Below are positions 1,035 through 39,720 of a stretch of 64,000 bases of DNA, piece by piece. The position numbers and the translations under genes were made by a program. Location of the stretch: the IMG/VR virus record IMGVR_UViG_3300028800_000001, positions 263,296 through 327,295 of that record. The stretch is one strand, 5' to 3'. The stretch is from a virus. The notes below the pieces were generated by a model that ran no database searches, had not been told where the DNA came from, and saw only the letters and a program-made list of their open reading frames with translations. How positions within the stretch are numbered: position 1 is the stretch's first letter; each line of letters begins with the position of its first letter.

Positions 1035-1144
1035 TCTCCTTGAATTAATTATTTTTTTATTTTCCCGCGTAAATCTCTTTACAAAATTAATTATATGCCA
1101 CTAGTATGTAAAAGACAAGCTTTTCTTCTATGAATATTCAGAAA
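1035..1144 (-). promoter_or_regulatory. promoter/leader for 241..1029: TTCTGAATATTCA element, then -35 TTGTCT, N17, -10 TATAAT, then TAATTTT, then AATAATTAATTCAAGGAGA leader
   Basis: Minus-strand reading ...ctgtatttctgaatattcatagaagaaaagcTTGTCTtttacatactagtggcaTATAATtaattttgtaaag...ataaaaaaataattaattcaaggagattattATG. The architecture is almost identical to 39589..39720. Confidence 0.5.
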
Positions 1145-1161
1145 TACAGAAAAGTGGTACT

Positions 1162-2103
1162 TTACGCATGTGGGTTTTTTGCACGATAGGGAATGCCCAA
1201 TGCTTTCAGCTTTTTTACGACTGCGGGTTTGATGTCAGAGCCGTTCTCAAAGACGACTTCAGCAATGTGAGACGTGTTGACGCCACCATGATATTGTGCT
1301 TCAGGGTACGTAGGAACTTCAGCAAGACTGGCATACTTGAGAGGGCTGTCATATTTGAGTGCTGCGAAGCCTGTATGATCTGGCTTTGAGAGTGCAGAAG
1401 GCAGCAAATAGCCAGCAGAAGAGAGTGAATCGTTGCCTGTCCAGGTTGTGTTGTCTTTTATACTCTCTTTTAAGCGTACGGAGACAGAGCCGTACATATC
1501 AACGGTGTCACCCCAACCGGCCTTTGTGGGATCAGCACTTTTGAGGCGTCCATCGCCGTCAGCCGAGAGATAGCCGTATATCGGACGATCTTCATCTTCA
1601 GTTTTCATTTGGTCGTAGCCAAAAAGGTCTTCTTCCACACTAGCGCGATGCCAAACATCCAATAATCCGCCAGATTTACCGGTTTCATGTTGTGATTTGA
1701 AGCGACCATCTGTCAACACCTTGCCGAGTATTTGTGGACGCACTCGTATCCAGGGCTGTGCATCCTTAAAGAGATCAACTGCTTTTTGATCAAGCGCTTT
1801 GGTGTAGTCTTCAACGCTCATGCCAGCTTTGGCTGCTTTAAATGCAAAGACCGTGGCCTTATTGTTGTTATACTTATCAATGATTGCTTGTGGTGGTTTG
1901 AGCTTTTGTAAAATCTTAGGCACAAGGTTATTGGGATGCAGTGGATTCTTCGGTCCTGGCGTTCTGGTGCCATCGCGTGCCACAATCAGGTGCGCTTCTC
2001 CTGCGGTAGAAAAGCGTCCAAGATGATCATGATGTGGGTTGTACTTCTCTTGAAGTTGCAGCACAAGACGTTTAATCAGCCGAATGTCTTTTTGAAAATA
2101 CAT
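1162..2103 (-). CDS. KYNPxH-leader module-family protein (313 aa), function unknown
   Basis: N-terminus LQLQEKYNPHHDHLGRFSTAGEAHLIVARDGTRTPGPKNPLHPNN. Core motifs PWIRVRP, GRFKSQHETGKSGG, LFGY, RPIYGYLS, YGSVSVRLK, TWTGNDSL, YPEAQYHGG, EVVF, GIPYRA. Confidence 0.65.
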   Translation of the reverse strand: MYFQKDIRLIKRLVLQLQEKYNPHHDHLGRFSTAGEAHLIVARDGTRTPGPKNPLHPNNLVPKILQKLKPPQAIIDKYNNNKATVFAFKAAKAGMSVEDYTKALDQKAVDLFKDAQPWIRVRPQILGKVLTDGRFKSQHETGKSGGLLDVWHRASVEEDLFGYDQMKTEDEDRPIYGYLSADGDGRLKSADPTKAGWGDTVDMYGSVSVRLKESIKDNTTWTGNDSLSSAGYLLPSALSKPDHTGFAALKYDSPLKYASLAEVPTYPEAQYHGGVNTSHIAEVVFENGSDIKPAVVKKLKALGIPYRAKNPHA

Positions 2104-2171
2104 ACAAATCTCCAGGCAGAAAAAAGTGTGGTTGCTTTTTATTTTGTGTGAAGATTTGTATGAACGAAGTT

Positions 2172-2444
2172 TTACGAAGCAGGAATGATTTTGACACCTT
2201 TGAGCAATTCTTCTAGCTTGTTTTGGTCACCATCATACTTTTGCCAGGGATCACGTGCTCCCAGCGATACTAAGGGAAGGGGTGGATACAGTGTTTTACT
2301 ATTGAGATCTAACACACACCCATATTTCAGGTCTTTGTTTCCGTGTTCTGGCACGTCGGCTGAGAGGACATAAAGATTGGGATCGTCAGGATGCGATGCA
2401 ATGATTGTTTGTTTTCCCATTGGGGGTTTCTCCTTACTATGCAA
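2172..2444 (-). CDS. small partner-family protein (90 aa) upstream of module-family gene 1162..2103
   Basis: KTLYPPLPLVSLGARDPWQKYDGDQNKLEELLKG matches the 11896..12174, 13008..13220 and 1..220 products. Confidence 0.5.
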   Translation of the reverse strand: MHSKEKPPMGKQTIIASHPDDPNLYVLSADVPEHGNKDLKYGCVLDLNSKTLYPPLPLVSLGARDPWQKYDGDQNKLEELLKGVKIIPAS

Positions 2445-2883
2445 CTTTCTTTACTACTACTAATAACAAATTTTTGAGTGCCAAAATTTCTGCATCCTGT
2501 GCTTCAAGATGCTTTTTTAGCTCTTCATTTTCATGAAAGATCTTGAGCGTGGTTTGATACGTTTCTTCCGCTTGCAATTGCTGATGTCTTCCTAACACGT
2601 CTTGCCCGACCGATAAAATTGATAAGGCAACTAATTGGATGAATGTCTGGCTTGTCCACTGCACATACTGATTGGCGGTTGCATGAAAACCAGGAAAGCC
2701 AAGGATGGCAAGAAATACAAAGAAGTAAGCACACCACATGTTGCTGAGCACATTGGTTACAAAAACCGCCACACGTTGATTGAAGCCACCTGCTTTGCGT
2801 TCTAATGCTTGCAACACATTGACGTTACGCACTTTGTGTGGGTGTTCTTTGTGTTCATATAAAGTTACTTTGTGATCACTCAT
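2437..2883 (-). CDS. membrane protein with 2 TM segments and an N-terminal coiled coil (148 aa), possibly lysis- or virion-associated
   Basis: Hydrophobic stretches FFVFLAILGFPGF and FIQLVALSILSVG; heptad-like N-terminus. Overlaps the stop of the upstream gene. Confidence 0.4.
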   Translation of the reverse strand: MSDHKVTLYEHKEHPHKVRNVNVLQALERKAGGFNQRVAVFVTNVLSNMWCAYFFVFLAILGFPGFHATANQYVQWTSQTFIQLVALSILSVGQDVLGRHQQLQAEETYQTTLKIFHENEELKKHLEAQDAEILALKNLLLVVVKKVA

Positions 2884-2896
2884 CGCTTCCTACTTC

Positions 2897-5822: not shown

Positions 5823-5896
5823 TGTTTTCTCCAGTACAAATCATTGCAACAGAAATGCTATTTTTGTTTGTACTGAAGAATTTAGGAGAAATACAG

Positions 5897-6814
5897 TTAT
5901 TTTTGTTCGTGGCCTTGCAGGGCAAATGCAGTGCGATCTTCCCCAATGCAGAGCCAGAGATTTTCAAACAAGAGTGCTTCGGCAGGAACACTCATTGTTG
6001 GAAAAGCAGCATCTTTGTCAATATACGCTAAAGTGCAGTGTGGTGTAAAGCCATGTGTGTTGTCAATAGGAACAGGCAGAGACGTTCGAAGCTGTTCACG
6101 CCACTCTGCTATCCCTGGAAGGTCTACAGAGGCGTAAAACGGCAGCGTAGCGCTCTCTGTGGGGGTGTTTGTGAAGCACCCGATCCCTGAGACAATGCCA
6201 TGTACCGGAACCGCGTTTGTCGCATAGTCACCGATTGCTTTTTTGAGCTGTGCGGAAAGGGCATCAGGAACATTCTCAGCGCTTCCTAGTATCATCAAAG
6301 TGACATGCAGCTCTTGTGGCTCACATTTCCCTTCACAGTCCAGTGCTATTTTTTGTGCGGCATCTGGCTCCAGATAAAATGCCACCATGATTGGCAAGGC
6401 CGACACAGGTTTAGGTTGCTCTGGTGTTTCTTCTTTGCGTAGCCACAGCGTCTTTAAAAAAGAAACATGCTCTTCGTTGGCGCGAAAGATTGGCGTCTGC
6501 AAAAAGTCTTTGACAGCTATATCGTGTGCTGCAAGATAGCCAATTAATTGTTCTTCATTCTTGACAGGCAACGTCCATGTCGTCTCTTCAAAGATGCTTT
6601 TCTTCTTTGCAGGTTCTTCATCTGAAAGGGTTGCGCGCTCCTCTTCTGGGAGATCATCAAGATTTTCACAAGGCAGCACACGATTCAAAAAATCTTCACG
6701 TGCTTCATCAGTCAATTGGTGCCGTTGCAAAAACTTGGCAACGCGGCGTGAGAGATCAGGTGACATATTGTCAGGTACACTGCTTTTTGCACTATCGTCT
6801 TTGAGTATTTTCAC
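5897..6814 (-). CDS. 2H phosphoesterase superfamily protein (LigT / cyclic phosphodiesterase-like) with an acidic N-terminal extension (305 aa)
   Basis: Two H-x-T-x motifs at the expected spacing: ELHVTLMILG (around aa 170) and FTPHCTLAYI (around aa 262). Confidence 0.6.
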   Translation of the reverse strand: MKILKDDSAKSSVPDNMSPDLSRRVAKFLQRHQLTDEAREDFLNRVLPCENLDDLPEEERATLSDEEPAKKKSIFEETTWTLPVKNEEQLIGYLAAHDIAVKDFLQTPIFRANEEHVSFLKTLWLRKEETPEQPKPVSALPIMVAFYLEPDAAQKIALDCEGKCEPQELHVTLMILGSAENVPDALSAQLKKAIGDYATNAVPVHGIVSGIGCFTNTPTESATLPFYASVDLPGIAEWREQLRTSLPVPIDNTHGFTPHCTLAYIDKDAAFPTMSVPAEALLFENLWLCIGEDRTAFALQGHEQK

Positions 6815-9800
6815 AAAGTGTCTCCATTCAAAATGGTTTTGCCTACACGGGTTGCTGTTCTATTTAAAACTACCAGAAAGTCAGCACGTTTATTGATCGA
6901 ATCTACATGAGAGCGATCAACATAAATGGCATCATAGCCCTTCATTGCGGCGTAGCGACCAGGATCGTTGGCAAGATCAAAGAGCCGATCAATGCGGCGT
7001 GACTCCGTATACTTCCCAGCATCATCCAAGGCTTTGCCCCGTGTACGCAAATCATTCTTGTAGTCAATCCACTCATTGATTAAACGTCCCTTCTCAATTG
7101 CGGTGGTATTTTTGAGTACGGACATATGCAGCACATCATCGCCATAAGTAGCGGCCACATGAGACGCACTATATCGGTCAGATACTCCTTCTGTGGTAAG
7201 CGCGGTATAGGTTCCGTTGCCATAGACGCCAAGTCCTGCAAAATAGTGCCCACTTTGATAGCTTGCAGCATAGCCCAGGCCGTCAGAGGGATCACCACCA
7301 TCATCCACACCGCGATAGAGCTCAGCCTCACCGTCTTTAATGTGCTGCGCAAGCACATTATCTTCAACCACATGTGGAGGGCCATCAAACCCCTGTGCTT
7401 TATAGATTTCCTGTAAGCAGGCGTCGGCATCCGTGGCGCTACTGCTTCCTGGGATTGGGCCTTTGCCTGTATCCATATAGTTTTTGACGTAGGGAATATC
7501 TTCAGGGTTGCTATATTTGGCTTCCGTCTTCTGAAATTCCTGGTTATCAGGGTGTTTCGGTCCTTTCTCGCGGGTACCATCAGCATGCACAAGCAGGTGT
7601 GCATTTTCTGTCGTGGTAAATTTCCCTACGTGATCATGCGCAGGGTTGTACTTTTCTTCAAACTGCTCAACACTTTTTGTTCCTGAGACGCGGTAAGAAA
7701 TGCCTTTGGCTTTGAGTTGTGCCTCAAGCGGTGGTGTAAGCTCATAATCATTATGAAACACAATTTCTGCAATAGTTGAGGTGTTTAGACCACCATGAAA
7801 TTGTGCCTCTGGATAGCCGCGTACATCACTCACGTTTTGGTAGGTCAGTGGATCTGGACCATGCACACTAAAATTGGTATGATCAGGATGCAGCATGCTT
7901 CCTGGCAAGAGATAGCCACCCATACCAAGTGAGTCATCACCTGTCCAGGTGGTTTTTTGCTTCACCTCTGGTTTGAAGCGAACCGCAACGCCTCCATATT
8001 CATCAACAGAGTCGAACATGCCATGCCGCGTCTGTCTCAGGCTTGCGCCGTCAGGATGATCGCTTAGATAGCCGTAAAGTGGACGCTGCTCTTTGGCAAG
8101 ATCGTCTGGATAGCCAAAGAGATCATGTTCTGCTTCAGAACGTGAATCGTGATCCATAATTCCCGCAGAGGTATTGGTTTCAAATTGCGACTTGAAGCGT
8201 TCATCATCCAATATCTTTGAAAGAATTGTTGGGCGTACCCGCATCCAAGGTTCTGCATTCTTGAGCAGTTCCACGGCTTTGTCATCAACGGCTTTGTTGT
8301 ACTCTTCAGCCGTCATGTTATGCGTCTGCGCATGCTTTTCAGCGAACGCTGCACCTTGTATGTCATATTTTTTGAGGACGGCGTCTGGTGGACGCACCTG
8401 TTCTAAGATATCTTTTTTCTGATTATCAGGATGCGCCGGTCCTTTTTCAGTGGTACCATCACGATGCACTAAAAGGTGGGCATTTTCGGTGGTCGTAAAT
8501 TGTCCATTGTGCCCGTGGGCTGGATTATATTTCGCTTCGCCTGTGAGCAGCTCTTGATCACGTGCGGATAAATCTTCTAGCGATTGCACACCCATCAAAC
8601 GATTGAAAAAGTCCTGACGCTCTGCGAGTGTCCAAGAGGCCGCAACAGGGCCAGCAAGAAACTTTTCTACCAGTGGTACTAGATCAGGGGCAAGCGTATC
8701 AGGGATTGTGTTAATGGCTTGATTTTCTGCATCAGTGATTTGATCTTTATGTTCTGGGGTATCATCATCTATTTCCTCGTCATTTTGCTTCTCCTCTGGT
8801 AAATACAATGAAAGATCAAGTGGTTCATGCATCTTGCCGTGGCTGCGATGCCCTGGCTTTTTGCGCGGCACAGGGATAACGCCATGAGCAGGTTTGCCGT
8901 GAGGAGCCGCATGTGGTTTTGCAGCAGGTGCGCCGTGAGCAGCAGCAGGTTTCTTGAGTGGCTTCACGCTCGTTGGCACTGCTGGATGCTTTGGTGGCAT
9001 TCCACCGGTTTGTGACTCAGGGTGTGCCGTAATCTTGAAAAAGTCTTCCCAGGTGGGATTCTTCATTCCAGCTAGCTGATGCAAAATCTCAAAACGTTTT
9101 GCGAAACCTAACGCTGCTTCATCATTGGCTGCATACTCTTTTGAGAGGATCAGGGCTTTGGTTTCTTTGGTGAGAAACTTTCCCAGGATGCCATGATCAA
9201 TGCTGTTGCGCAGAAAACTTTTTCCAATGACTTTCATCAGAAAGCTATGCGACTGGATTGCAATATCTTTTTTGACGAGTGCCGAAGAAAGTTGTGTCAG
9301 GTTAATCTTGCCGGTCTTTTGATTGAGGGTATAGTGTCCAGATTGATCTTGTTTCATGCCAAGAATATATTCCAACATGCCGACTTTGGTCACCTGATCA
9401 GGGGGCATTTTCTCCATTGCCTCGGTTGCCGTCTTATCATCCAGGGGAGTGCTTTTTACATCCTCAGAGACCACTACGGGCTCTTTGTCCACTGTTCCAC
9501 TGTGGACTACAGGCACCGTATCAGAGGCTCCTACCAGATCTGCAATGCGGCTTGCACCGGTCTGTGAAAAGGCAATGCGCGTGCTACCAGTGGGCACAAT
9601 ACGATACGTCTTGCCATTAATGTTGGCGGTATAGACGCCGTCAGCCCCTCTGGTCATTGCCCCTTTGTCGGAGAGGGCTTTCGCAATGTGGGCAGGCATG
9701 GTGGTGAGCACATCAGCGTGCACACCGCCTGCGCCATCATCAGCACCGATGAATTGTCCGGTCGTAGTGCTGTGATTACGGTTATATTTTTCTTCAGGAA

Positions 9801-9870
9801 GATAGAGTGTAAGGTCAGGTTTCTCCTGTTCTTCTATCTCTTTACGAAAGAGAGCATAATGATACTTCAT
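6811..9870 (-). CDS. 1019-aa polyvalent protein: N-terminal unique region, His/Pro/Ala/Lys-rich linker, two tandem KYNPxH-leader + GRFKSQFETN modules, C-terminal ~230-aa domain
   Basis: Repeated LYLPEEK(Y/Q)N, EAKYNPAHGHNGQFTTTENAHLLVHRDGT and EEKYNPAHDHVGKFTTTENAHLLVHADGT. One complete core module (WMRVRP, ERFKSQFETNTSAG, RPLYGYLS, TWTGDDSL, YPEAQFHGG, GISYRV). C-terminus has ELYRGVDDG...GVYGNGTY. Low-complexity linker KPAAAHGAPAAKPHAAPHGKPAHG. Confidence 0.7.
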   Translation of the reverse strand: MKYHYALFRKEIEEQEKPDLTLYLPEEKYNRNHSTTTGQFIGADDGAGGVHADVLTTMPAHIAKALSDKGAMTRGADGVYTANINGKTYRIVPTGSTRIAFSQTGASRIADLVGASDTVPVVHSGTVDKEPVVVSEDVKSTPLDDKTATEAMEKMPPDQVTKVGMLEYILGMKQDQSGHYTLNQKTGKINLTQLSSALVKKDIAIQSHSFLMKVIGKSFLRNSIDHGILGKFLTKETKALILSKEYAANDEAALGFAKRFEILHQLAGMKNPTWEDFFKITAHPESQTGGMPPKHPAVPTSVKPLKKPAAAHGAPAAKPHAAPHGKPAHGVIPVPRKKPGHRSHGKMHEPLDLSLYLPEEKQNDEEIDDDTPEHKDQITDAENQAINTIPDTLAPDLVPLVEKFLAGPVAASWTLAERQDFFNRLMGVQSLEDLSARDQELLTGEAKYNPAHGHNGQFTTTENAHLLVHRDGTTEKGPAHPDNQKKDILEQVRPPDAVLKKYDIQGAAFAEKHAQTHNMTAEEYNKAVDDKAVELLKNAEPWMRVRPTILSKILDDERFKSQFETNTSAGIMDHDSRSEAEHDLFGYPDDLAKEQRPLYGYLSDHPDGASLRQTRHGMFDSVDEYGGVAVRFKPEVKQKTTWTGDDSLGMGGYLLPGSMLHPDHTNFSVHGPDPLTYQNVSDVRGYPEAQFHGGLNTSTIAEIVFHNDYELTPPLEAQLKAKGISYRVSGTKSVEQFEEKYNPAHDHVGKFTTTENAHLLVHADGTREKGPKHPDNQEFQKTEAKYSNPEDIPYVKNYMDTGKGPIPGSSSATDADACLQEIYKAQGFDGPPHVVEDNVLAQHIKDGEAELYRGVDDGGDPSDGLGYAASYQSGHYFAGLGVYGNGTYTALTTEGVSDRYSASHVAATYGDDVLHMSVLKNTTAIEKGRLINEWIDYKNDLRTRGKALDDAGKYTESRRIDRLFDLANDPGRYAAMKGYDAIYVDRSHVDSINKRADFLVVLNRTATRVGKTILNGDTL

Positions 9871-10493: not shown

Positions 10494-10610
10494 ACTTGTC
10501 TCCCCAAGAGATAGTTTTCTTTTTCGTATTTGGTATTTCTCTTTGAGAAGATTTGGAGATTTGATGGGGGATTAATTTTTGAGGTTGTTTCTTTTTCTAA
10601 GTATTTTTTA

Positions 10611-10865: not shown

Positions 10866-11837
10866 TTAATCAGTAAAGAAGGAAGCAGGTTTTCTTTTTT
10901 TGGCGTCCCTACTCTCCCATGGAATTGTTGCAATGACCGCATTCAATGCATTCATCGTCGGATCTTTTTTGCTTTTACTCAGTAGTGCAATTGCATGCAA
11001 ACGTAACTCCAATGCTTTGATCGTACGATCATTCGCTCCAGTGTAACGTGCCATCCGTACAATTTCGTCAGCATGCTCTACAAAAGATCTGAGTACTTTT
11101 TTATTAAATGGCTTCTCGTTTGGATCAGTAGAGCGGGTACCTGTCGCATCTTTAAAAGGGGGCGTGGTGTAATTCGTTGCAATCTTTGACTCAAAGTCAT
11201 TGGTAATTTCATCAGTGCGCAAAGCAAGTCCCATATCGATAAGTTTTAATCCCTTCTCGCCTTTTTGTGTTGAATCAACTAAATAGTTCCCTAAATGACG
11301 ATCACGATCATGAACGACATACTCATAGAGACGAAGTTTCGCATAATTCTCTATACTTAATTTGCTCACCGCAGCCACGCGCTGTTCTTTTGAGAGTGCA
11401 AGCATTGGTGTTCCCTCAACCCACGGCTGGACAGTAACATCTTGTCCATTACGTGCCATTTTTTGCACTGGAAGAGTAAAGTCGCTCACTCCAAGCACGT
11501 CAGCCGTCTTCGATGAAAAAACTGCACGTTCTTCCTGATTGGAAATGCCCATTGCGTCTGCTTCATCGCTGTTCTTTTTTACCAAATAGTTTTTTCCAGC
11601 AATGGTTGTCTTGTAGGTTGCATTCAAACTATCGCCACGCCCAAATTGCTGCAATGATGCTGTTTGAAGTTGCCCCTGGCTAGGAAAGCGTTTATCACTA
11701 TTTGGAGTCATATCTAGAGCCGAAGGCGATGACGCAAATCGACCATCTTCCTCATCGTGATAATAATTGTACTTGCGCTGATAGGCATATCTTCGTAACC
11801 GTACGGCTCGCGGCATCTTACATCTCTCCTGATACAA
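10866..11837 (-). CDS. protein kinase-like (HxDxxxxN...DMG) domain protein with a KYN-type N-terminal leader (323 aa)
   Basis: N-terminus LRRYAYQRKYNYYHDEEDGRF resembles the KYNPxHxxxGxF leader. Catalytic-loop-like VHDRDRHLGNYLV and DFG-like LIDMGLA. AT-rich promoter upstream. Confidence 0.55.
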   Translation of the reverse strand: MYQERCKMPRAVRLRRYAYQRKYNYYHDEEDGRFASSPSALDMTPNSDKRFPSQGQLQTASLQQFGRGDSLNATYKTTIAGKNYLVKKNSDEADAMGISNQEERAVFSSKTADVLGVSDFTLPVQKMARNGQDVTVQPWVEGTPMLALSKEQRVAAVSKLSIENYAKLRLYEYVVHDRDRHLGNYLVDSTQKGEKGLKLIDMGLALRTDEITNDFESKIATNYTTPPFKDATGTRSTDPNEKPFNKKVLRSFVEHADEIVRMARYTGANDRTIKALELRLHAIALLSKSKKDPTMNALNAVIATIPWESRDAKKRKPASFFTD

Positions 11838-11840: not shown

Positions 11841-11898
11841 GATAATTAATTATTTATTTTGTGAGTGCGAGACATTTCTTTTTAAAATTAATTATTTA
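11841..11898 (-). promoter_or_regulatory. AT-rich bipartite promoter/leader for 10866..11837 (minus: TAGACA-N18-AATAAT-TAATTTT ... ATAAATAATTAATTATCC-RBS)
   Basis: Same TAATTAATTTT / AATAATTAATT paired elements as at 1.04, 17.46, 25.89 and 39.60 kb. The promoter overlaps the stop of 11896..12174. Confidence 0.4.
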
Positions 11899-12174
11899 CA
11901 TCGTTTCGATATCATGTCTATCTTCTTTTTTCTCAGCCAAACTATCGGCAACAGGGGTTGCATCCTTTAGCCATTCTTGTAGTACGTCTTGAGAGTCGGT
12001 GTAAGGTTCCCACTCTTGTCTGCTTTGCAGTGTCGCAAGGGCATTGACTGGATACAGTTTTTTCTCATCACTGTAGTAGATTTGCCCCAGGTGTTGTGTA
12101 CGTCCATAGAGCATTCCTGTGCCCAGGTCAAGCAGGTAATACCCATCTTCGTCACGTCCAAGTATTTTTTTCAT
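11896..12174 (-). CDS. small partner-family protein (92 aa) upstream of kinase-like gene
   Basis: MKKILGRDEDGYYLLDLGTGMLYGRTQHLGQIYYSDEKKLYPVNALATLQSRQEWEPYTDSQDVLQEWLKDA is a paralogue of 13008..13220, 2172..2444 and 1..220. Confidence 0.5.
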   Translation of the reverse strand: MKKILGRDEDGYYLLDLGTGMLYGRTQHLGQIYYSDEKKLYPVNALATLQSRQEWEPYTDSQDVLQEWLKDATPVADSLAEKKEDRHDIETM

Positions 12175-12187: not shown

Positions 12188-13006
12188 TTAAAGCTTTACC
12201 GTAAATGGAATGCCTGCGCTGTTCAGTGCCTTTTTTATAGGGGCTGTTGGTGCTTTCCCATGAAAGGTAACACTTTTGATATCGCTTGTTGAGACTCCAC
12301 CATGCACCTGTGCTTCCATATATTCATTTGCCAGATCACGTGGTCGCAAGGGATCAATACCGTTATAGAGTGGATAAATGCGACTATCAGGATGCGTCAC
12401 TGGTTGTGGAATGACGCTTTCGTAGTGTCCACCAGAGGTCATTGCCAGTGAATCACCATAGGTCATAGTAGCACGATCTCGTGTTTCTGGCTTTAGTTCA
12501 ACAGCTACGTTCCCATATTGAGAAACATCTGCATCAGTATTGTCTCCATGAGTATCTTTTGAGAGATATCCATAAATGGGACGGTTCTCCACCCCTGCTT
12601 TTGCTTCATCAAATCCAAAGGCACCAGATTCTAGTTTATCTCTTGAATCTTTGGCAACGCTTCCGCCACTCTTGTTTGTCTCGAATTGACTTTTGAAGCG
12701 ACCGCCATCCAATATTTTTTGGAGTGCTGACGGTTTTACTCGTACAAAGAGTCCAGTATCTTTGACTGCATCTTGCGCTTGCTTATCAAGCGTTGCTTTG
12801 TAGGCATCAGGTGAGAGACCATGACGCTCCCCAAAGATTTCGTAACGCAGATGGGTGTTGTCAGCAAACTCAGAGGCCCAGTGCTCTGTAGGATGTACTC
12901 CCAGGCTTTCTAGTGTCTTGCCGGAACCACCCTCAGAAATAAATTCACCATTTGCATCGCTATGCGCATGATTGTATTTCCTTTGGACTGCGTAGCGAAA
13001 CCGCAT
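12188..13006 (-). CDS. KYN-leader module-family protein (start adjusted to MRFRYAVQRKYNHAHSD), function unknown
   Basis: The ORF-track start at 13168 overlaps the upstream gene. The internal Met at 13006 abuts the stop of 13008..13220. Core motifs FVRVKP, GRFKSQFETNKSGG, RPIYGYLS, YGNVAVELK, MTYGDSL, YMEAQVHGG, GIPFTV. Confidence 0.55.
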   Translation of the reverse strand: MRFRYAVQRKYNHAHSDANGEFISEGGSGKTLESLGVHPTEHWASEFADNTHLRYEIFGERHGLSPDAYKATLDKQAQDAVKDTGLFVRVKPSALQKILDGGRFKSQFETNKSGGSVAKDSRDKLESGAFGFDEAKAGVENRPIYGYLSKDTHGDNTDADVSQYGNVAVELKPETRDRATMTYGDSLAMTSGGHYESVIPQPVTHPDSRIYPLYNGIDPLRPRDLANEYMEAQVHGGVSTSDIKSVTFHGKAPTAPIKKALNSAGIPFTVKL

Positions 13007-13007
13007 A

Positions 13008-13220
13008 TTACTCTCCAACCTTCTTTGCCGTCTTGAGCCACTCATTGACTTTTTCTTGTACACCATCATAGGGCTCCCAGGCAGTTCCACGCGTGAGCAT
13101 CGTGGCAATGGATTGTGGTGGATACAAGAGATGTTTCTCTTGATCATAAATCTGGCCCATTTTTTCATCTTCAGTCAGGATGAAGCGTACTCCATCATCA
13201 GAGACAGCAAATATTTTCAT
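13008..13220 (-). CDS. small partner-family protein (70 aa)
   Basis: MKIFAVSDDGVRFILTEDEKMGQIYDQEKHLLYPPQSIATMLTRGTAWEPYDGVQEKVNEWLKTAKK. Confidence 0.5.
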   Translation of the reverse strand: MKIFAVSDDGVRFILTEDEKMGQIYDQEKHLLYPPQSIATMLTRGTAWEPYDGVQEKVNEWLKTAKKVGE

Positions 13221-14458: not shown

Positions 14459-14566
14459 GTAAAGCGCTCCTTTCGAAAGAAAAGCACAAAGTAGTGTTTG
14501 GAGGATTTTGTATTGGTGAAGAATTTGGAAGGATGTGTCTAGTATACCGCAGCGCGTGACAAAAGG

Positions 14567-17462: not shown

Positions 17463-17522
17463 GAATTAATTATTTTTTCACGCTCTTCTCTTTTTTATTT
17501 TTTAAAAATAATTATTTATTTC
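17463..17522 (-). promoter_or_regulatory. AT-rich bipartite promoter/leader for ParB-like copy 1 (TAAATAATTATTTTT ... AAAAATAATTAATTCA-RBS GAGGAAG)
   Basis: Same paired AATTAATT elements as the four other copies. Confidence 0.4.
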
Positions 17523-25265: not shown

Positions 25266-25597
25266 GTGATTACTACAACGAGTGCCTGGAGACGGTGAAG
25301 AACCGTTTTCCCGAATTGCTCTTTGAGCTCTATGACCGACGTGATCCGGTGTATCTGCGCAGCAATTTTGATACCATCGTACAGGGGATTGAGCATCTGA
25401 TGCCGGTTGGTGCTCAGGTCTGGACGCTCACCCTCGCAGAGGCGCAAAGCGTCACCGCAATTGGCTATCTAGAACTGATCAAGCGCAGCGACGAAACCGT
25501 TAAGATTGCTTTTATGGATGTTCCAGCACAGTATAAGCAACCAATTCTTGAGAGTCTTGCCCTGTTCTTTAGTATTCAGGAGTTGGAGAAACTATGA
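25262..25597 (+). CDS. hypothetical protein (111 aa)
   Basis: ORF track. 4-nt overlap with neighbours. Confidence 0.4.
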   Translation: MSDYYNECLETVKNRFPELLFELYDRRDPVYLRSNFDTIVQGIEHLMPVGAQVWTLTLAEAQSVTAIGYLELIKRSDETVKIAFMDVPAQYKQPILESLALFFSIQELEKL

Positions 25598-25896
25598 GCG
25601 TGTACGTTGATCCGCTTTTTACTACCACGCCAAAGGCGAATTGGGCGTATAAAAAAGCATGCCATATGACGGCTGACACTGAAGAAGAACTGCACGCAAT
25701 GGCAGAGCGTCTGGGACTCAAACGCTCCTGGTTTCAAAATCATCATCCACGCGCCGTCTTCTGGCATTACGATTTAACCGTAAACAAACGCAGGCAGGCC
25801 ATTGATTACGGAGCTGTTCCCATCACAGGGCAGCAAGTATTGGCACGTGTTCTGGCATACAACGAACGAGAACGAAAAGAGAAAGAAACGAATTAA
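25594..25896 (+). CDS. DUF4031-like protein (100 aa)
   Basis: YKKACHMTADTEEELHAMAERLGLKRSWFQ resembles the conserved CHM.AD...ELH.mA.r.G core of DUF4031. Confidence 0.45.
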   Translation: MSVYVDPLFTTTPKANWAYKKACHMTADTEEELHAMAERLGLKRSWFQNHHPRAVFWHYDLTVNKRRQAIDYGAVPITGQQVLARVLAYNERERKEKETN

Positions 25897-25949
25897 TTAA
25901 TTTTTCAACCTTCTTTTTATAAAAATAAAAAATAATTAATTATTTATTT
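25891..25949 (+). promoter_or_regulatory. AT-rich bipartite promoter/leader for the helicase gene (AATTAATTAATTTTT ... ATAAAAAATAATTAATTATTTATTT, then RBS AGGAGG)
   Basis: Fifth copy of the paired AATTAATT architecture, here on the plus strand. Confidence 0.45.
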
Positions 25950-25983
25950 CCAATCTTACTATGAGAAGGAGGATCTTTTTTTT

Positions 25984-28560
25984 ATGGCACTAGCACTCGC
26001 ACCGCGACCATATCAGCAAGAAGCATTTGATGCGATTATGGCACAGAATATCAAAGCATTGGTGAAGCTCCCGACAGGGTGCGGGAAAACTTTGTTGTTC
26101 CCGATGTTGGCAAGGCATAAACGTTTTAGCAAAAAGATAACGCTTATTCTGGCAGAGCACGAAGAACTGTTAGAACAGGCCCGTGATAAGATTTTGCGCA
26201 TGTACCCCAATGCTGACGTTGGTATTGTGGGCTTTGGGAAAGCGGAGTGGGACCATCGGATAATTCTAGGGGGCGTGGATACGCTTTCCTATTCAAAGCG
26301 CTTAGAGAAATTGGCAACGCTGGATATCGGGTTAGTTATCTGTGACGAGTGTTTTCCGGCAGGAACACTTGTTGACGGGCGTCCTATTGAGACGTTGAAA
26401 GTTGGTGATACTGTCACGGCGTTTGATGAGAAAACGCAGACGTTTGCACAAAGACGTATCACTTCTGTCTCTCAGAAGTCGGCAGTAAGACTTTTAAAAA
26501 TTATAGTAAATGGTGCATCGGTAGTATGCACGCCAAACCATCCATTTTACACTGAATCTGGATGGAAATATGCTGAGAACATTTTGGTAGGAGAGAGAAT
26601 ACTGTATGCAAATCTTACTAGCAACGTGCCCGATTTGCGAGCAACAATTTCCGGTGTTGGAAAGTCACAAGCGAATCAAGTTCAGGAAAGGAATTCCAGT
26701 GTTTTGCTCACCAACATGCACAAAGATTGCAGTCTCAAAGATGAATTCAGAGAGAATGGCGAAGACAAACAAGAAATATGCTTCGCAGCGTATGAGAAGA
26801 AACAATCCGATGCGCAACGAATCTTCGAGAAAGAAAATGAGATCAACTTTGGTGGCAATGGGACATGTTCCGAAGATTCGTGGGGGCAACGGAAAAGGAT
26901 TAACAGTTCCGCAGCGGCTTTTGTTCGAGAGACTTGGTTGGGAACCGAAAGAAACTATTGTGAGAACGAACATAGTGAAAGCGGAGAATCTAGAGCGGTA
27001 TCCAACACATTACAAGGTGGACATTGGCAACGAAGCGCTGATGATAGCTATAGAAATCGATGGGGGGTCTCATTATTCGATAATGAGGAGAAAACAGGAC
27101 GCGAAGAAAACGAAGTTTCTTGTTGGAAGAGGGTGGACGGTATTGAGGTTTACGAACCAGGAAGTGATGGAACATTTGGAGGATTGTGTCCAGGCGGTTC
27201 AGTCTACAATTTTGAAGTCGAAGACCTCCATACCTATACAGCAAATGGCTTCGTAGTTCATAACTGCCATCATGCGGTCACCAAGAGCTATCTAGATATC
27301 TTTGCGGCCTGCAAAAATGCTTTTTTGTATGGCAATACTGCAACGGTGGATCGCCATGATCAGCGTGACATTACGGCTATCTTTGGCCCACCGGTTTACA
27401 GTAAATCTATTAATGAAATGATTGATGCCGAATATCTTTGTGGCATCGTTCCTTTTACTATTCGAACACAGAACACCATCAATGTTGCGGTTTCTGCAAC
27501 CTCTGGTGATTATAGTGAAGCGCGGCTGGAGCAGGCCGTCAATCGAAAGGATCGTAATGATTGCATCGTTCGGGCGTGTTGTGAAGAAAAGTATGGTGGA
27601 CCTGATTTGCCTACTGTTGTCTTTTGTGCTGGTACGCAGCATGCGAAAGAGCAGGCTTTGGCATATGTTCGAGCAGGAATACCTGCCGCGCATATTACGA
27701 TGGATGTTCCCAAAGAAATTCGTGAACAGCATTATGCTGATTTTGCTACCGGCGCAATTAAAGTCCTCACCAATGTCCAAATTCTTACTGAAGGATGGGA
27801 CGCGGATGTACGAAGGATTGTGTTTGCCCGTCCTACAAAAAGTCGCCCTCTCTTCACTCAAATGCTGGGGCGCGGGACTCGTATCGCTCCTGGTAAGGAA
27901 GCTTGTATTCTCTTAGATTTTACCGACAATTATCTTGACCATGATCTTGAGCCCTGCACACTAGAAGATGTTCTTGGTGTACCAGTACGCGAAGGGGTGG
28001 ATTGCCGAGAGGTTATTCGTAAAGAGAAGGAGGCCAGTGGTGGCGCGGTTCCTGAAGACGGTGAAGAGAAGAAAAAGCGTGAGAAGCAGGAAATTGACGA
28101 GCGCAACAAACTGGTTGAGAAGCAGCTCACGTTCCGCTACAAGTGGCAGCAGGTGCAAGGTGGCGCATACATTGCCACCGTTGGCGATAAGCGTGCCGGA
28201 GGCGATTTGATCCTCTACCCATCAAAAGCCGGTGGTTATATCGTCGGGGTCTCCTATAAAGAAACACCAATGGCAAAGCAACCAAAAGAGGTGGTGGTTG
28301 CAAGAAACGTGCCGCTTTCCTGGGCTCAATCAATTGCAGAGCAGCAAGGGAAAAACTTGCAACTGGGCAATTATCAATTTATTGATCCTGATGCTCCCTG
28401 GCGGAAAAGTAAGCCATCGCAGGCGCAACTTGACCAAATCAAAATGCTTTCAAAAGCAACTTATGGGAAAATTCTTCCAAAGAAGAATATGACCAAGGGT
28501 GAAGCTTCAGAACTGATCTCTAAAGGGTTTGCGCTCTTGCAGCAAAAAGGGAGAAAGTAA
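25984..28560 (+). CDS. SF2 DExH-box helicase interrupted by an intein in motif II (858-aa precursor)
   Basis: Motif I LPTGCGKT. Motif II is split as LVICDE|C...intein...HN|CHHA, restoring DECHH after splicing. Motifs V/VI ...VLTNVQILTEGWDA...FTQMLGRGTRIAP. C-terminal ~200-aa extension. Confidence 0.75.
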   Translation: MALALAPRPYQQEAFDAIMAQNIKALVKLPTGCGKTLLFPMLARHKRFSKKITLILAEHEELLEQARDKILRMYPNADVGIVGFGKAEWDHRIILGGVDTLSYSKRLEKLATLDIGLVICDECFPAGTLVDGRPIETLKVGDTVTAFDEKTQTFAQRRITSVSQKSAVRLLKIIVNGASVVCTPNHPFYTESGWKYAENILVGERILYANLTSNVPDLRATISGVGKSQANQVQERNSSVLLTNMHKDCSLKDEFRENGEDKQEICFAAYEKKQSDAQRIFEKENEINFGGNGTCSEDSWGQRKRINSSAAAFVRETWLGTERNYCENEHSESGESRAVSNTLQGGHWQRSADDSYRNRWGVSLFDNEEKTGREENEVSCWKRVDGIEVYEPGSDGTFGGLCPGGSVYNFEVEDLHTYTANGFVVHNCHHAVTKSYLDIFAACKNAFLYGNTATVDRHDQRDITAIFGPPVYSKSINEMIDAEYLCGIVPFTIRTQNTINVAVSATSGDYSEARLEQAVNRKDRNDCIVRACCEEKYGGPDLPTVVFCAGTQHAKEQALAYVRAGIPAAHITMDVPKEIREQHYADFATGAIKVLTNVQILTEGWDADVRRIVFARPTKSRPLFTQMLGRGTRIAPGKEACILLDFTDNYLDHDLEPCTLEDVLGVPVREGVDCREVIRKEKEASGGAVPEDGEEKKKREKQEIDERNKLVEKQLTFRYKWQQVQGGAYIATVGDKRAGGDLILYPSKAGGYIVGVSYKETPMAKQPKEVVVARNVPLSWAQSIAEQQGKNLQLGNYQFIDPDAPWRKSKPSQAQLDQIKMLSKATYGKILPKKNMTKGEASELISKGFALLQQKGRK
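26350..27264 (+). other. intein (305 aa) inserted in the helicase DECH box
   Basis: N-terminal Hint blocks CFPAGTLVDG...KVGDTV and CTPNHPFYTESGW. C-terminal blocks VYNFEVEDLHTYTANGFVVHN, followed by the +1 Cys. Boundaries come from codon arithmetic, with C123 at 26350. Confidence 0.7.
26606..27256 (+). CDS. nested out-of-frame gene inside the intein: Zn-finger + DUF559/Vsr-like PD-(D/E)xK endonuclease (216 aa), putative homing endonuclease
   Basis: Frame +2 relative to the helicase. N-terminal CPICEQQ...CSPTC. C-terminal KVDIGNEALMIAIEIDGGSHY...RRKQDAKKTKFLVGRGWTVLRFTNQEV matches the DUF559 core (vDf..klaIEvDG..H...D..R...L...GW.VlRF.n.ev). The helicase/intein frame stays open across the same 651 nt. 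Confidence 0.55.
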   Translation: MQILLATCPICEQQFPVLESHKRIKFRKGIPVFCSPTCTKIAVSKMNSERMAKTNKKYASQRMRRNNPMRNESSRKKMRSTLVAMGHVPKIRGGNGKGLTVPQRLLFERLGWEPKETIVRTNIVKAENLERYPTHYKVDIGNEALMIAIEIDGGSHYSIMRRKQDAKKTKFLVGRGWTVLRFTNQEVMEHLEDCVQAVQSTILKSKTSIPIQQMAS

Positions 28561-38002: not shown

Positions 38003-38014
38003 TTTTCTTCTTTC

Positions 38015-38365
38015 TTATCTTCGTTGTCTTCGCTGGCGTGTTGCCAGCGGCAACTTGGCGCGAATGCTATCAGGGTATGCTACGTCAAGTACTCTGACAG
38101 TCTCTAGTCCAAATTCTTCAATCAAAGGCTGCATCGCTAACTCCAGCATGAGATCGCCATGCTTGCCTTCAGGCACAAAGATATCAAAGTAGCAATCCGG
38201 TCCTTTGACGCCAGTGTATTTCGCTTTGTACTCAAACGTGAGCGCGTGCATAACGGTGCGTATATTTTCCCAACATTTTCCATGCTCTGCTTCTGGACTC
38301 CCCCATGGACTCGGATAGAATTCGATCACTACGATGGGCGTTTCTTCGCCAGGAGTAATGGTCAT
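38015..38365 (-). CDS. hypothetical protein (116 aa)
   Basis: ORF track. Confidence 0.4.
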   Translation of the reverse strand: MTITPGEETPIVVIEFYPSPWGSPEAEHGKCWENIRTVMHALTFEYKAKYTGVKGPDCYFDIFVPEGKHGDLMLELAMQPLIEEFGLETVRVLDVAYPDSIRAKLPLATRQRRQRR

Positions 38366-38400
38366 TCACTTTTTCCTTTTTTGCAAAAAATGGGAGTGGC

Positions 38401-39588
38401 TTACGCCACTCCAGTTTTAACGGTGTCAAGCACCGCACAGTAGTAGAGAATAGTGGTTTGGATGCCTCTAAAGCTATCATCGTGCTTTTTAACTTTACCT
38501 TTGATGACGTAACTCTCACCTTCAATCAGTAGGTCTTTCGGAGTGAACCATGTGTATTGGTTCCCTTCTGCATCCTCCAGGTGATAAATGTTATTGACAG
38601 AGCCGCGTTTAAAGCCAGGGCAATAGTTGACGCGTACCAGCGTCAACGTACGCGTGATTTCCTCGTCTACGTTTCCTTGAAATTGGCTCACCTTTTTCTC
38701 GGTGCGCCGCGAAATCTTATGCGCAAGATCATAGGCTACAAAGAGGGAAGCGACCGTTCCACAGAATTTCCAGGGGATACTGTCGCTCTTGCAGGCCACC
38801 CACAGATTATGATGATAATCACTCGTGCTTTCGTTGATGACCAGTTCGCGTATCCAGGTGAGTGCCGTTTGTACGCGCTTTTCGTCTTCGTTGTTTGGTC
38901 GCGGCGCATCTTGATCTTTTCGCACATCGTCAATCATGAAGAGCGCGGTCTGTGACGTTTTTGCCAGTGGCTCGTAGCTTTCGTGCACCATCTTGGCGGA
39001 AACCCACCCGTAGGTACGGATTGCGAGGGCCACCCAACGCAGGTAACTTTCAGTGCCGATTCCATCAATACGACCAGCGCATCCCTCCTCGTAGGCACCA
39101 CAGGAGTCGCCTGCCAGTGACAACAGCTCTGCGTATGAGGCCATCGCCTCTGGGCTTTTGTGTCCTAAAAAGTCTTTTAAGCAGGTGCGACCAACCTGTT
39201 TGTAAACGCCGGTTGCGTTTTGACGCAGAATAAAGGTGTTGTCGCGTCTGCGATTGGTGTTACACTGTTCGCACTGCTGGGGAACATGGCGAAACTGGAC
39301 AAGCTCGCCTTCGTGGGTCATTGTTGGTACAGAGCGTAAAATATTGCCGTCTTCGGTGTGATCGACAATCGAGATGAAGCTCCATCCGTTGATAATAGGA
39401 GAATCGCCTGTGATCTCAATCTCAAAGTGGCACAAATCGATGCCACCGAGCTCTTCAACCTTGATCATCTGTGTACCAACAACAGAGAGCACAATAGGAG
39501 CGCATTTTAAGCGTTTCGCCTTGCGGTTGAGGACATTAATCTTCTCTTGAAGTTTATCCATGTTGGGCTGTGGAATGAGGTAGGTCAT
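38401..39588 (-). CDS. Cys-rich hypothetical protein (395 aa) behind a strong promoter
   Basis: ORF track. RBS AAGGAG 8 nt before the ATG. CEQCNTNRRRDNTF Cys motif. Confidence 0.5.
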   Translation of the reverse strand: MTYLIPQPNMDKLQEKINVLNRKAKRLKCAPIVLSVVGTQMIKVEELGGIDLCHFEIEITGDSPIINGWSFISIVDHTEDGNILRSVPTMTHEGELVQFRHVPQQCEQCNTNRRRDNTFILRQNATGVYKQVGRTCLKDFLGHKSPEAMASYAELLSLAGDSCGAYEEGCAGRIDGIGTESYLRWVALAIRTYGWVSAKMVHESYEPLAKTSQTALFMIDDVRKDQDAPRPNNEDEKRVQTALTWIRELVINESTSDYHHNLWVACKSDSIPWKFCGTVASLFVAYDLAHKISRRTEKKVSQFQGNVDEEITRTLTLVRVNYCPGFKRGSVNNIYHLEDAEGNQYTWFTPKDLLIEGESYVIKGKVKKHDDSFRGIQTTILYYCAVLDTVKTGVA

Positions 39589-39720
39589 CGATTTTTCTCC
39601 TTGAATTAATTATTTTATTTTTTCGTTTTCACAAAATCATTTTCTAAAATTAATTATAGGCCAGAACGGGTTAAAAGACAAGCATTTTTTCACTGTATTT
39701 TCAGAATATAAATAAAAACC
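39589..39720 (-). promoter_or_regulatory. promoter/leader for 38401..39588 (minus: TTCTGAAAATACA element, then -35 TTGTCT, N17, -10 TATAAT, TAATTTT, then ATAAAATAATTAATTCAAGGAGA)
   Basis: Near-identical architecture to 1035..1144. Preceded on the minus strand by a hairpin (ccgctca...tgagcgg) and a T-run that terminates the upstream gene. Confidence 0.55.

What the first reader, a model, noticed from the sequence alone, without database searches (positions are those of the whole stretch)
1035..39660. Conserved AT-rich bipartite promoter/leader (TAATTAATTTT ... AATAATTAATT(C/A) then RBS) upstream of five genes on both strands
Copies at 1041-1096, 11842-11897, 17463-17522, 25891-25949 and 39603-39660 all show two AATTAATT-containing blocks 20-30 nt apart, the second directly abutting the Shine-Dalgarno. 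In two copies the first block is the TATAAT of a TTGTCT-N17-TATAAT promoter. The genes served (a family effector, the kinase-like protein, ParB-like copy 1, the intein-helicase, a Cys-rich 395-aa protein) may form a co-regulated temporal class. The palindromic AATTAATT could bind a phage factor or structure the 5' UTR.
Basis: seen in the sequence. Interest (0 to 1): 0.6.

Follow-up and report, generated by a model that had tools for sequence, protein, structure and literature searches.

The report
Twin AT-box promoter islands in a phage
Five short, almost pure A/T islands in this uncultured phage each carry the same 10-base box twice, four DNA turns apart, just upstream of a gene; they are real and most likely a special class of promoter/leader with a built-in pair of regulator sites, which is an ordinary kind of phage control element with a previously undescribed sequence.

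Summary
The 10-mer ATAATTAATT occurs 10 times against 0.18 expected, and the twin pattern 5 times against 0. All copies lie in five intergenic islands, oriented with the downstream gene. These islands are the five most AT-rich 60-mers of the window.

- The conserved unit is the directional box A(A/T)ATAATTAATT. It is repeated directly at 42, 42, 42, 39/43 and 44 bp.
- The second box abuts the Shine-Dalgarno at only 2 of 5 sites.
- Box 1 of site 3 is degenerate.

At three sites box 1 is the -10 hexamer of a sigma-70-type promoter. In the only diverged relative found, islands and ordinary promoters swap at orthologous positions. The islands are therefore promoter/leader modules.

RNA folding and Rfam give nothing, so a structured 5' UTR is not supported.

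What the twin box does is unresolved:
- My best guess (about 0.35) is a pair of sites, on one face of the helix, for one DNA-binding regulator.
- Second is a twin -10-like element read by sigma or RNA polymerase.
- Third is a -10 element plus an AU-rich translational enhancer.

No binding protein was identified. This is a new member of a known kind, of modest interest.

The parts
1085..1094 (-). Site W1, box 1 (ATAATTAATT). It contains the -10 hexamer TATAAT (1090-1095).
   Evidence: promoter TTGTCT-17-TATAAT
1113..1118 (-). Site W1, -35 hexamer TTGTCT. The upstream element CTGAATATTC (1132-1141) begins 23 bp before the -35.
1043..1052 (-). Site W1, box 2 (ATAATTAATT), 42 bp downstream of box 1. 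It directly abuts the SD AAGGAGA (1035-1041). The served gene is 241-1029 (DUF3626/SopF-like).
11886..11895 (-). Site W2, box 1. It is fused to the TAA stop of gene 11896-12174. The -10-like hexamer AATAAT lies at 11891-11896, with -35-like TAGACA at 11915-11920 (spacer 18).
11842..11853 (-). Site W2, box 2 (perfect 12-bp palindrome ATAATTAATTAT), 42 bp from box 1 and 12 nt before the SD AGGAGAG (11824-11830). The served gene is 10866-11816 (weak PI3/PI4-kinase-like hit).
17506..17515 (-). Site W3, box 1, degenerate (ATAATTATTT). It is fused to the TAA stop of the small upstream ORF. There is no -35.
17464..17473 (-). Site W3, box 2, 42 bp from box 1 and 12 nt before the SD. The served gene is 16607-17440 (ParB_N-like activator), which leads into Tet_JBP 15757-16665.
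25891..25902 (+). Site W4, box 1 (AATTAATTAATT, two overlapping cores). It contains the TAA stop of DUF4031 gene 25594-25896. There is no -35.
25932..25943 (+). Site W4, box 2 (perfect palindrome ATAATTAATTAT), 24 nt before the SD GAAGGAGG (25965-25972). The served gene is the intein-containing SF2 helicase 25984-28560. This is the only island whose position is conserved in the relative.
39648..39657 (-). Site W5, box 1. It contains the -10 hexamer TATAAT (39653-39658). The -35 TTGTCT is at 39676-39681, and the upstream element CTGAAAATAC is at 39695-39704.
39604..39613 (-). Site W5, box 2, 44 bp from box 1. It abuts the SD AAGGAGA (39596-39602). The served gene is 38401-39588 (395 aa, no known family).

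Best explanation
Each site is a roughly 56-60-bp A/T island that works as a promoter plus 5' leader module for the gene just downstream.

Its two ends carry the same 10-bp box, ATAATTAATT, whose core AATTAATT is a palindrome. The boxes lie 42-44 bp apart, which is four helical turns, so both face the same side of the DNA.

The upstream box supplies the -10 hexamer ((T/A)ATAAT) and the AT-rich melting region of a sigma-70-family promoter. The unconserved, A-rich spacer and the downstream box are then transcribed as an unstructured leader that ends 0-24 nt before the Shine-Dalgarno.

The twin boxes are most likely two binding sites for one sequence-specific DNA-binding protein, encoded by the phage or the host and not identified here. 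Binding cooperatively at about -9..-2 and +34..+41, it would occlude the promoter and block elongation. That would switch these five transcription units together.

Shown here:
- the motif, its statistics, its orientation and its spacing;
- the overlap with -10 hexamers;
- the interchange of islands with ordinary promoters in a relative;
- the absence of RNA structure.

Inferred:
- that transcription starts there;
- that a protein binds the boxes;
- that the effect is repression.
For: Motif statistics:
- ATAATTAATT gives 10 hits against 0.18 expected.
- The twin pattern gives 5 against 0.
- All hits are intergenic and co-oriented with the downstream gene.
- The islands are the five most AT-rich 60-mers of the window.

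Pairing and spacing:
- Boxes occur in pairs; the window holds no single ATAATTAATT box. The flanking 18 kb of the same phage holds none either, apart from weaker two-mismatch hits.
- Box-to-box spacing is fixed at 42-44 bp, while the distance from box 2 to the SD varies from 0 to 24 nt. The partner of box 2 is therefore box 1, not the ribosome site.
- The spacer sequence is not conserved, so selection acts on the boxes and their distance, not on recent duplication.

Symmetry and promoter overlap:
- The core is a perfect 8-bp palindrome in 9 of 10 boxes, and a 12-bp perfect palindrome in 2. Recognition of a -10 element alone does not require this.
- Box 1 is in register with the -10 hexamer of 10/12 sigma-70-type promoters at W1, W5 and W2, and at R1 and R2 in the relative.

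Comparison with the relative:
- W5 corresponds to TTGACA-17-GATACT.
- W3 corresponds to TGCTATACT.
- R1 corresponds to the window's TTGACT-17-TATACT at 50296-50408.
- The helicase island is conserved in place, including the box ATAATTAATTAT.

No RNA structure and no Rfam family were found.
Against: - The box flanks are asymmetric: the left AT is present in 9 of 10 boxes and the right AT in 2 of 10. A symmetric dimer site would not predict this; a directional reader such as sigma would.
- In the relative the boxes have drifted to ATAATTAT, ATAATTAA and ATAATAAA. Spacing there is 43-50 bp, and what survives is mainly the ATAAT hexamer.
- W3 and W4 have no -35, so promoter occlusion is not demonstrated there.
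- No DNA-binding protein candidate was found among about 60 ORFs scanned.
- The ParB-like proteins nearby are activators of thymine dioxygenases and have no DNA-binding domain (PMC13229309; model).
- There are only five sites and one diverged relative, and there are no transcript data.
Confidence: 0.35

Rival explanations
1. Twin -10-type elements are read directionally by RNA polymerase itself. Each box is (T/A)ATAAT plus TAATT.

Box 1 would be the promoter -10. Box 2, on the non-template strand about +31 to +36, would do one of three things:
- re-capture sigma, giving a promoter-proximal sigma-dependent pause;
- act as a second promoter without a -35;
- serve, like box 1, as the 10-nt AT-only promoter element of a phage-specified sigma or RNA polymerase, in the style of T4 gp55 TATAAATA or jumbo-phage virion-polymerase early promoters.
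For: - The box is directional, and the always-conserved left flank completes a -10 hexamer in 9 of 10 boxes.
- ATAAT is what survives in the relative.
- W3 and W4 have no -35, yet they sit where the relative has promoters.
- AR9 and phiKZ-type early promoters are 10-13-nt AT-only motifs centred at -10 (PMC7598289; PMC5312081, consensus AAATATATATTAT-N6-G).
Against: - It gives no reason for obligatory pairs at a fixed 42-44 bp, or for the palindromic core.
- At W1, W5 and R2 a start 7 nt after box 2 would fall on or inside the Shine-Dalgarno, so box 2 is a poor productive promoter there.
- No phage RNA polymerase or sigma gene was seen in 82 kb. Most of the genome is unseen, though.
Confidence: 0.25
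2. The two boxes have two separate functions that only look alike. Box 1 would be the -10 hexamer plus an AT-rich discriminator of a strong promoter. Box 2, with the A-run in front of it, would be an AU-rich, unstructured translational enhancer and multi-frame stop (TAA) insulator ahead of the ribosome site.
For: - The spacer and the left flank of box 2 are strongly A-rich on the sense strand. This points to selection at the RNA level.
- Box 2 abuts the SD at W1, W5 and R2.
- The relative has a single box filling a 27-bp intercistronic gap directly before an SD (L020 987-1046).
- Each box carries TAA in two or three frames.
- The leaders are unstructured.
Against: - It does not explain why the same 10-mer is used at both ends of all five islands.
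- It does not explain the constant 42-44 bp between boxes while the distance from box 2 to the SD varies from 0 to 24 nt.
- No gene in the window has box 2 without box 1.
Confidence: 0.15
3. RNA-level hairpin or processing site. In read-through transcripts the two self-complementary AAUUAAUU cores would pair and loop out the spacer. This would create a nuclease site or mask and unmask the ribosome site.
For: - The cores are self-complementary.
- W2, W3 and W4 are intercistronic and begin at the upstream stop codon.
Against: - The box-box stem appears in the minimum-free-energy fold only at W5.
- Energies are -2.9 to -14.1 kcal/mol with z-scores from +1.25 to -1.38, no better than shuffles.
- There is no Rfam hit.
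- The SD is not part of the stem.
- An all-AU 8-bp stem closing a 34-nt loop is marginal.
Confidence: 0.03
4. T4 oriF/oriG-style replication origin. A promoter would be followed by a roughly 50-bp AT-rich DNA-unwinding element, in which the transcript forms an R-loop that primes replication.
For: - The architecture of a promoter followed at once by the most easily melted 50 bp in the region matches.
- One island sits in front of the helicase gene, and that position is conserved in the relative.
Against: - There are five copies in 40 kb, all tied to gene starts.
- rA:dT hybrids are weak.
- A separate 2.5-kb non-coding repeat region with strong GC skew (57.9-60.4 kb) is a better origin candidate.
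- Nothing in this model requires twin boxes.
Confidence: 0.04

Closest known systems
Paired operators that flank a transcription start.
   Same: - A palindromic core is repeated on the same helical face.
- One copy lies over the -10/+1 region.
- Several transcription units carry the same box.
   Different: - Spacing is four turns, with the second site inside the leader.
- The flanks are asymmetric.
- No cognate regulator is known.
- The sequence ATAATTAATT matches no operator I could find; a literature search on the motif returned only primers.
Jumbo-phage virion-RNA-polymerase early promoters (AR9 AAATATATATTAT-N6-G, and phiKZ-type), and T4 late promoters (TATAAATA)
   Same: - A 10-13-nt, highly conserved, A/T-only motif lies at about -10.
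- It is repeated before many operons.
- It often follows directly on the previous gene, with no -35 (PMC7598289, PMC5312081).
   Different: - Here the motif always comes in twos, 42-44 bp apart.
- At three sites it is combined with a normal -35.
- No phage polymerase or sigma gene was seen in the 82 kb available.
- The same genome has many canonical sigma-70-type promoters.
T4-type PeSL regulatory cassettes and strong T5/T7 early promoters with AT-rich downstream regions
   Same: - Repeated promoter cassettes are scattered between genes and exchange position between related phages.
- W5 has a terminator hairpin followed by a promoter.
- The initially transcribed region is AT-rich.
   Different: - W2, W3 and W4 have no hairpin and no -35.
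- The defining feature here is the duplicated box, which those cassettes lack.
AU-rich translational enhancers upstream of the Shine-Dalgarno, such as the T7 gene 10 leader AAATAATTTTGTTTAACTTTAAGAAGGAGA
   Same: AAATAATT-type AU-rich sequence lies directly 5' of a strong SD at W1 and W5.
   Different: - The distance to the SD is not constant.
- The element is locked to an identical copy upstream.

Membership tests
Sigma-70-type promoter | A -10 hexamer TAnnnT, close to TATAAT | tested here: met
   Box 1 gives TATAAT (W1, W5) or AATAAT (W2, W3). W4 gives only ATTAAT.
Sigma-70-type promoter | A -35 hexamer close to TTGACA, 16-18 bp upstream | tested here: inconclusive
   Present at W1 and W5 (TTGTCT, spacer 17) and at W2 (TAGACA, spacer 18). 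Absent at W3 and W4. Matches of 10/12 are common by chance: 35 found against 27 expected in 20 kb.
Sigma-70-type promoter | A mapped transcription start 6-8 nt downstream of the -10 | not testable with these tools
   No transcript data are available.
Paired operator of a dimeric regulator | A dyad-symmetric site | tested here: inconclusive
   The core AATTAATT is palindromic in 9 of 10 boxes. The outer flanks are asymmetric: left half 59/60 matches, right half 47/60 (counted).
Paired operator of a dimeric regulator | Two or more sites in helical phase, at least one over the core promoter | tested here: met
   Spacing is 42, 42, 42, 39/43 and 44 bp. Box 1 covers -9..-2 at W1, W2 and W5.
Paired operator of a dimeric regulator | A cognate DNA-binding protein | tested here: not met
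   - Pfam and PHROGs scans of about 60 ORFs found none, apart from an HTH_17 protein at 53600-54664 with no link to the boxes.
- The ParB-like proteins lack a DNA-binding domain (PMC13229309).
- Most of the genome is unseen.
Jumbo-phage virion-polymerase early promoter or phage-sigma promoter | A conserved AT-only motif of about 10 nt centred near -10 | tested here: met
   A(A/T)ATAATTAATT is present in 9 of 10 boxes. The family is described in PMC7598289.
Jumbo-phage virion-polymerase early promoter or phage-sigma promoter | The phage encodes its own RNA polymerase or sigma factor | tested here: inconclusive
   None was found in the window or in the 18 kb of flanks. The genome may be much larger: a cluster table lists a 327-kb contig.
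Sigma-dependent promoter-proximal pause element (lambda PR' type) | A -10-like hexamer on the non-template strand of the early transcribed region, typically +1 to +25 | tested here: not met
   A -10-like AATAAT is present in box 2, but at about +31 to +36 (derived). The typical range is from my own knowledge.
AU-rich translational enhancer | A fixed position immediately 5' of the Shine-Dalgarno, acting independently of upstream DNA | tested here: not met
   The distance to the SD is 0, 12, 12, 24 and 0 nt. Box 2 is never found without box 1 in this phage.
Structured RNA element or known RNA family | A stable, conserved secondary structure, or a match to Rfam | tested here: not met
   Fold z-scores run from +1.25 to -1.38, with different structures at each site. 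There are 0 Rfam hits at gathering threshold.

The most novel reading that the evidence does not exclude
The phage carries a thymine-hypermodification pathway: two ParB-activator/T-dioxygenase pairs, a DNA kinase-like P-loop protein and an amino-acid:DNA transferase. Characterised phage T-dioxygenases prefer NTC or NTG/NTA contexts (PMC13229309).

A box made only of A and T has no NTC or NTG. The twin boxes could therefore be islands that escape hypermodification, or that alone receive it. In that case polymerase or regulator binding at these five promoters would read the modification state of the DNA: injected versus newly replicated. The result would be an epigenetic-style timing switch.
Probability: 0.06. 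Interest if true: 0.8.

Novelty: new member of a known kind. Interest (0 to 1): 0.33.

Why it matters
The finding defines a clean regulatory signature that can be tested directly in a phage lineage with no cultured relative. That lineage carries a thymine-hypermodification pathway.

If the twin box is an operator pair, it marks a regulon. The regulon would comprise a SopF-like ADP-ribosyltransferase paralog, a kinase-like protein, the ParB-activator/T-dioxygenase operon, the helicase operon and a widespread 395-aa protein of unknown function. The box could then serve as bait to find the regulator.

In kind it is what one expects in any large lytic phage: several promoter classes, each with its own motif. 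It is useful for annotation but not surprising.

Tried and rejected
1. RNA hairpin or structured leader. Folding all five sites gave no common or stable structure, and Rfam gave nothing.

2. ParB-like protein as the box binder, with autoregulation at W3. Rejected for three reasons:
- The AlphaFold model shows a ParB_N domain, a disordered linker and C-terminal helices.
- The PDB matches are weak.
- The literature identifies these proteins as dioxygenase activators that lack a DNA-binding domain (PMC13229309).

3. Search for relatives to test conservation.
- No near match in INPHARED.
- The exact twin pattern over IMG/VR returned only AT-rich unrelated genomes, plus L006, which is the same phage at 99.8% identity.
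- Protein-seeded scans of IMG/VR and of metagenomes found only distant helicases of 37% identity or less.
- A third ParB/TET phage (L189) has no islands.
- Only one useful relative exists (L020/L107), plus a 2.6-kb fragment (L022).

4. Host identification.
- The transposase-like ORF against genome contigs found nothing.
- Terminase and ADDT tblastn gave only distant hits.

5. Literature search on AATTAATT returned only primer sequences.

6. Leader peptides. Mini-ORFs in the spacers are not consistent between sites (inspection).

7. Mobile element with target-site duplication. The spacers share no sequence, so this was rejected.

8. More copies in the same genome. There are none in the 8 kb left or the 9 kb right of the window, nor in the extra 5 kb of L006.

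Full report
**What is there**

Reading the five stated sites shows the same layout each time on the strand of the downstream gene. First comes [A(A/T)ATAATTAATT]TT. A 31-36-nt spacer follows, unconserved but A-rich. Then comes AAAA(T)AAAAT[AATTAATT](C/A).

Aligning the ten boxes gives a conserved unit of ATAATTAATT. The 8-bp core AATTAATT is a perfect palindrome in 9 of 10 boxes. The flanks are not symmetric: AT is present on the left in 9 of 10 boxes and on the right in only 2 of 10. Those two are the perfect 12-mers ATAATTAATTAT at W2 and W4. The two blocks are therefore direct repeats of a directional box that contains a palindromic core. Core-to-core spacing is 42, 42, 42, 39/43 and 44 bp.

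**Is it more than chance?**

Yes.
- AATTAATT gives 13 hits against 1.97 expected.
- ATAATTAATT gives 10 hits against 0.18 expected.
- The twin pattern gives 5 hits against 0.00 expected in shuffles.

Matches to the 12-mer with two or fewer mismatches are confined to the five islands, apart from one coding hit at 10288. The islands are the five most AT-rich 60-mers of the window, at 80-92% AT against a mean of 53.5% with sd 7%.

All five islands are intergenic and point the same way as the next gene. No further copies occur in 8 kb to the left or 9 kb to the right of the window (loci L103-L106).

- Box 2 abuts the Shine-Dalgarno only at W1 and W5 (AATTC-AAGGAGA). At W2, W3 and W4 there are 12, 12 and 24 nt in between.
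- Box 1 of W3 is degenerate.
- The W2 gene starts at the ATG at 11816.

**Promoter evidence**

W1 and W5 carry TTGTCT-N17-TATAAT, with the TATAAT formed by box 1. W2 carries TAGACA-N18-AATAAT in the same register.

W1 and W5 also share an upstream element with the other canonical promoters of the window (24637+, 46666-, 50355-, 56535-). This element, TTCTGAAAATAC, begins 23 bp upstream of the -35, or 21 bp at 24637 (distances counted by hand). A further promoter at 40350-40464, TTGTCT-N17-TATACT, fell below the thresholds of that scan and shows no such element in the sequence read. W3 and W4 have no -35 and begin exactly at the stop codon of the upstream gene.

**Evidence from the relative**

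Only one informative relative could be found. It is an ENA contig (L020/L107) with about 72-79% nucleotide identity in genes, a 66%-identical helicase, and conserved gene order.

The three most AT-rich segments of the 30 kb read from it are again islands of this type:
- R1 is TTGTCT-17-TATAAT-TATTTT...AAATAATAAAT-SD.
- R2 is TTGACG-17-GATAAT-TATTTT...AAATAATTAAGGAG.
- R3 lies upstream of the helicase and keeps a perfect ATAATTAATTAT before the SD.

Islands and ordinary promoters replace one another at orthologous positions:
- W5 corresponds to TTGACA-17-GATACT.
- W3 corresponds to TGCTATACT.
- R1 corresponds to the window's TTGACT-17-TATACT.

This is the best evidence that the islands, including those without a -35, are promoter modules.

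The same comparison shows that the exact box and spacing are not conserved. The boxes have become ATAATTAT or ATAATAAA, at 43-50 bp. What survives is mainly ATAAT.

**RNA level**

Folding each island with its leader gives different, weak structures, with z-scores from +1.25 to -1.38. There is no Rfam hit. At W1, W2 and W5 box 1 lies upstream of the expected start, so it would not be in the primary transcript. A structured 5' UTR is not supported. The sense-strand A-richness of the spacer does suggest that it is transcribed and selected to be unstructured.

**What the twin box does**

Three facts must be explained together:
- the same box appears at both ends of every island;
- the spacing of four helical turns is fixed, while the distance to the SD floats;
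- the core is palindromic but the flanks are directional.

A pair of sites for one DNA-binding regulator, at about -9..-2 and +34..+41, explains the first two facts and the palindrome. This is my best guess, at 0.35. It is weakened by the asymmetric flanks, by the drift in the relative, and by the absence of any candidate binder.

The nearby ParB-like proteins were considered as binders and rejected. They are the activators of phage thymine dioxygenases and lack a DNA-binding domain (PMC13229309). The model of 16607-17440 agrees with this.

The main rival, at 0.25, is that RNA polymerase itself reads both boxes. This could work as a promoter plus a sigma-dependent pause or tandem start. It could also work as the AT-only promoter element of a phage-specified sigma or polymerase, as in AR9 and phiKZ early promoters (PMC7598289, PMC5312081). 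This reading fits the directionality and the sites without a -35. It does not explain the obligatory pairing or the palindrome. At W1, W5 and R2 a start after box 2 would land on the SD.

A reading of -10 plus AU-rich translational enhancer, at 0.15, fits the A-rich leader and a single box before an SD in the relative. It does not fit the identical boxes or the fixed spacing.

Lower-ranked readings:
- RNA hairpin, 0.03.
- T4-style promoter plus unwinding-element origin, 0.04.

**Context**

The phage is uncultured. It has no near relative in INPHARED and only an 18-kb fragment in IMG/VR (L006).

The served genes are:
- a SopF-family (DUF3626) paralog (PMC6682159);
- a kinase-like protein;
- the first ParB-activator/Tet_JBP operon of a thymine-hypermodification cluster;
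- the intein-containing helicase;
- a widespread 395-aa protein of unknown function.

No common function or temporal class can be assigned from sequence.

**Verdict**

The promoter/leader interpretation is largely supported, the 5' UTR structure idea is not, and factor binding is plausible but untested. This is a new sequence class of an ordinary kind of phage regulatory element.

Noticed in passing
window 15757-23190 (- strand): A thymine-hypermodification cluster. It contains two ParB_N-like/Tet_JBP pairs (16607-17440 with 15757-16665, and 19141-19995 with 18293-19141), a P-loop nucleotide kinase3 (20097-20669), a GNAT (20982-21413) and an amino-acid:DNA transferase PF18724 (22285-23190). 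It matches the ParB-dependent T-dioxygenase systems of PMC13229309. Having two cognate pairs in one phage may be worth a look.
   Followed up: partly
window 241-1029, 1162-2103, 12188-13168, 13223-14170, and residues 548-647 of 6811-9870: Five paralogous DUF3626 domains. This is the family of the Salmonella effector SopF (PMC6682159). One copy lies inside a 1019-aa protein. The relative has one copy preceded by a single AT box (L020 1-996).
   Followed up: partly
window plus flanks (81.4 kb); relative L020/L107: Nineteen of the 64 six-base palindromes are completely absent. Examples are TGGCCA (0 against 21.6 expected), CTGCAG (0 against 22.1), CGCGCG (0 against 18.4) and AGGCCT (0 against 13.4). 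Largely the same set is absent from the relative. AT-only palindromes are not avoided. This is strong restriction-site avoidance, despite the DNA-modification genes.
   Followed up: partly
window 24610-24621, 39693-39704, 46689-46700, 50378-50389, 56558-56569 (approximate), and 1132-1141 (variant): A conserved element, TTCTGAAAATAC, begins 23 bp upstream of the -35 at six canonical TTGACN-N17-TATA(C/A)T promoters, or 21 bp at 24637. It also occurs in the right flank (L104 8258) and in the relative. By eye it matches the CodY box consensus AATTTTCWGAAAATT, as I recall it, at 12-13 of 15 positions. It could be an activator or host-factor site.
   Followed up: partly
window 14459-14566, 19996-20096, 23649-23754, 48699-48948; also 2104-2171, 5823-5896, 10494-10610: A third promoter class has no -35, (T/C)G(G/C)TATACT(A/G)G. 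It is followed 15-20 nt later by a leader motif, AAAT(T)CTTCA. The leader motif also occurs alone in three intergenic regions.
   Followed up: no
window 57867-60405: A 2.5-kb region has no convincing ORF, 41% GC and GC skew +0.22. It is filled with dozens of degenerate 34-36-nt units, TTTTTCAAG-N8-10-GT(A/G)YGARYCA. TRF and Rfam find nothing. It is a possible origin or iteron field, or an array of small RNAs.
   Followed up: partly
window 25984-28560 versus L020 10001-11656 and L022 36-1682: The helicase carries an intein (PT-HINT/Intein_splicing, residues about 134-427). The intein is absent from the 66%- and 65%-identical orthologues of the two relatives.
   Followed up: no
L020 1024-2987 versus window 20097-23190: The relative carries FolE-, QueE- and QueD-like genes (the 7-deazaguanine pathway). 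They sit next to its ParB-like gene and a homologue of the window ORF 17710-18306. The window phage has the kinase, GNAT and ADDT genes in that neighbourhood. The DNA-modification module has been exchanged between close relatives.
   Followed up: no
L006 3808-5357 versus the left flank (L103): The IMG/VR contig 3300031238_000012 is the same phage at 99.8% identity. It has a 1.55-kb segment where the ENA contig has 0.9 kb, so this is a variable region near the terminase side.
   Followed up: no
window 56982-57866: A 294-aa ORF has a faint Transposase_20 hit recorded in the contig tables. No relative was found in 185,579 reference genomes.
   Followed up: partly
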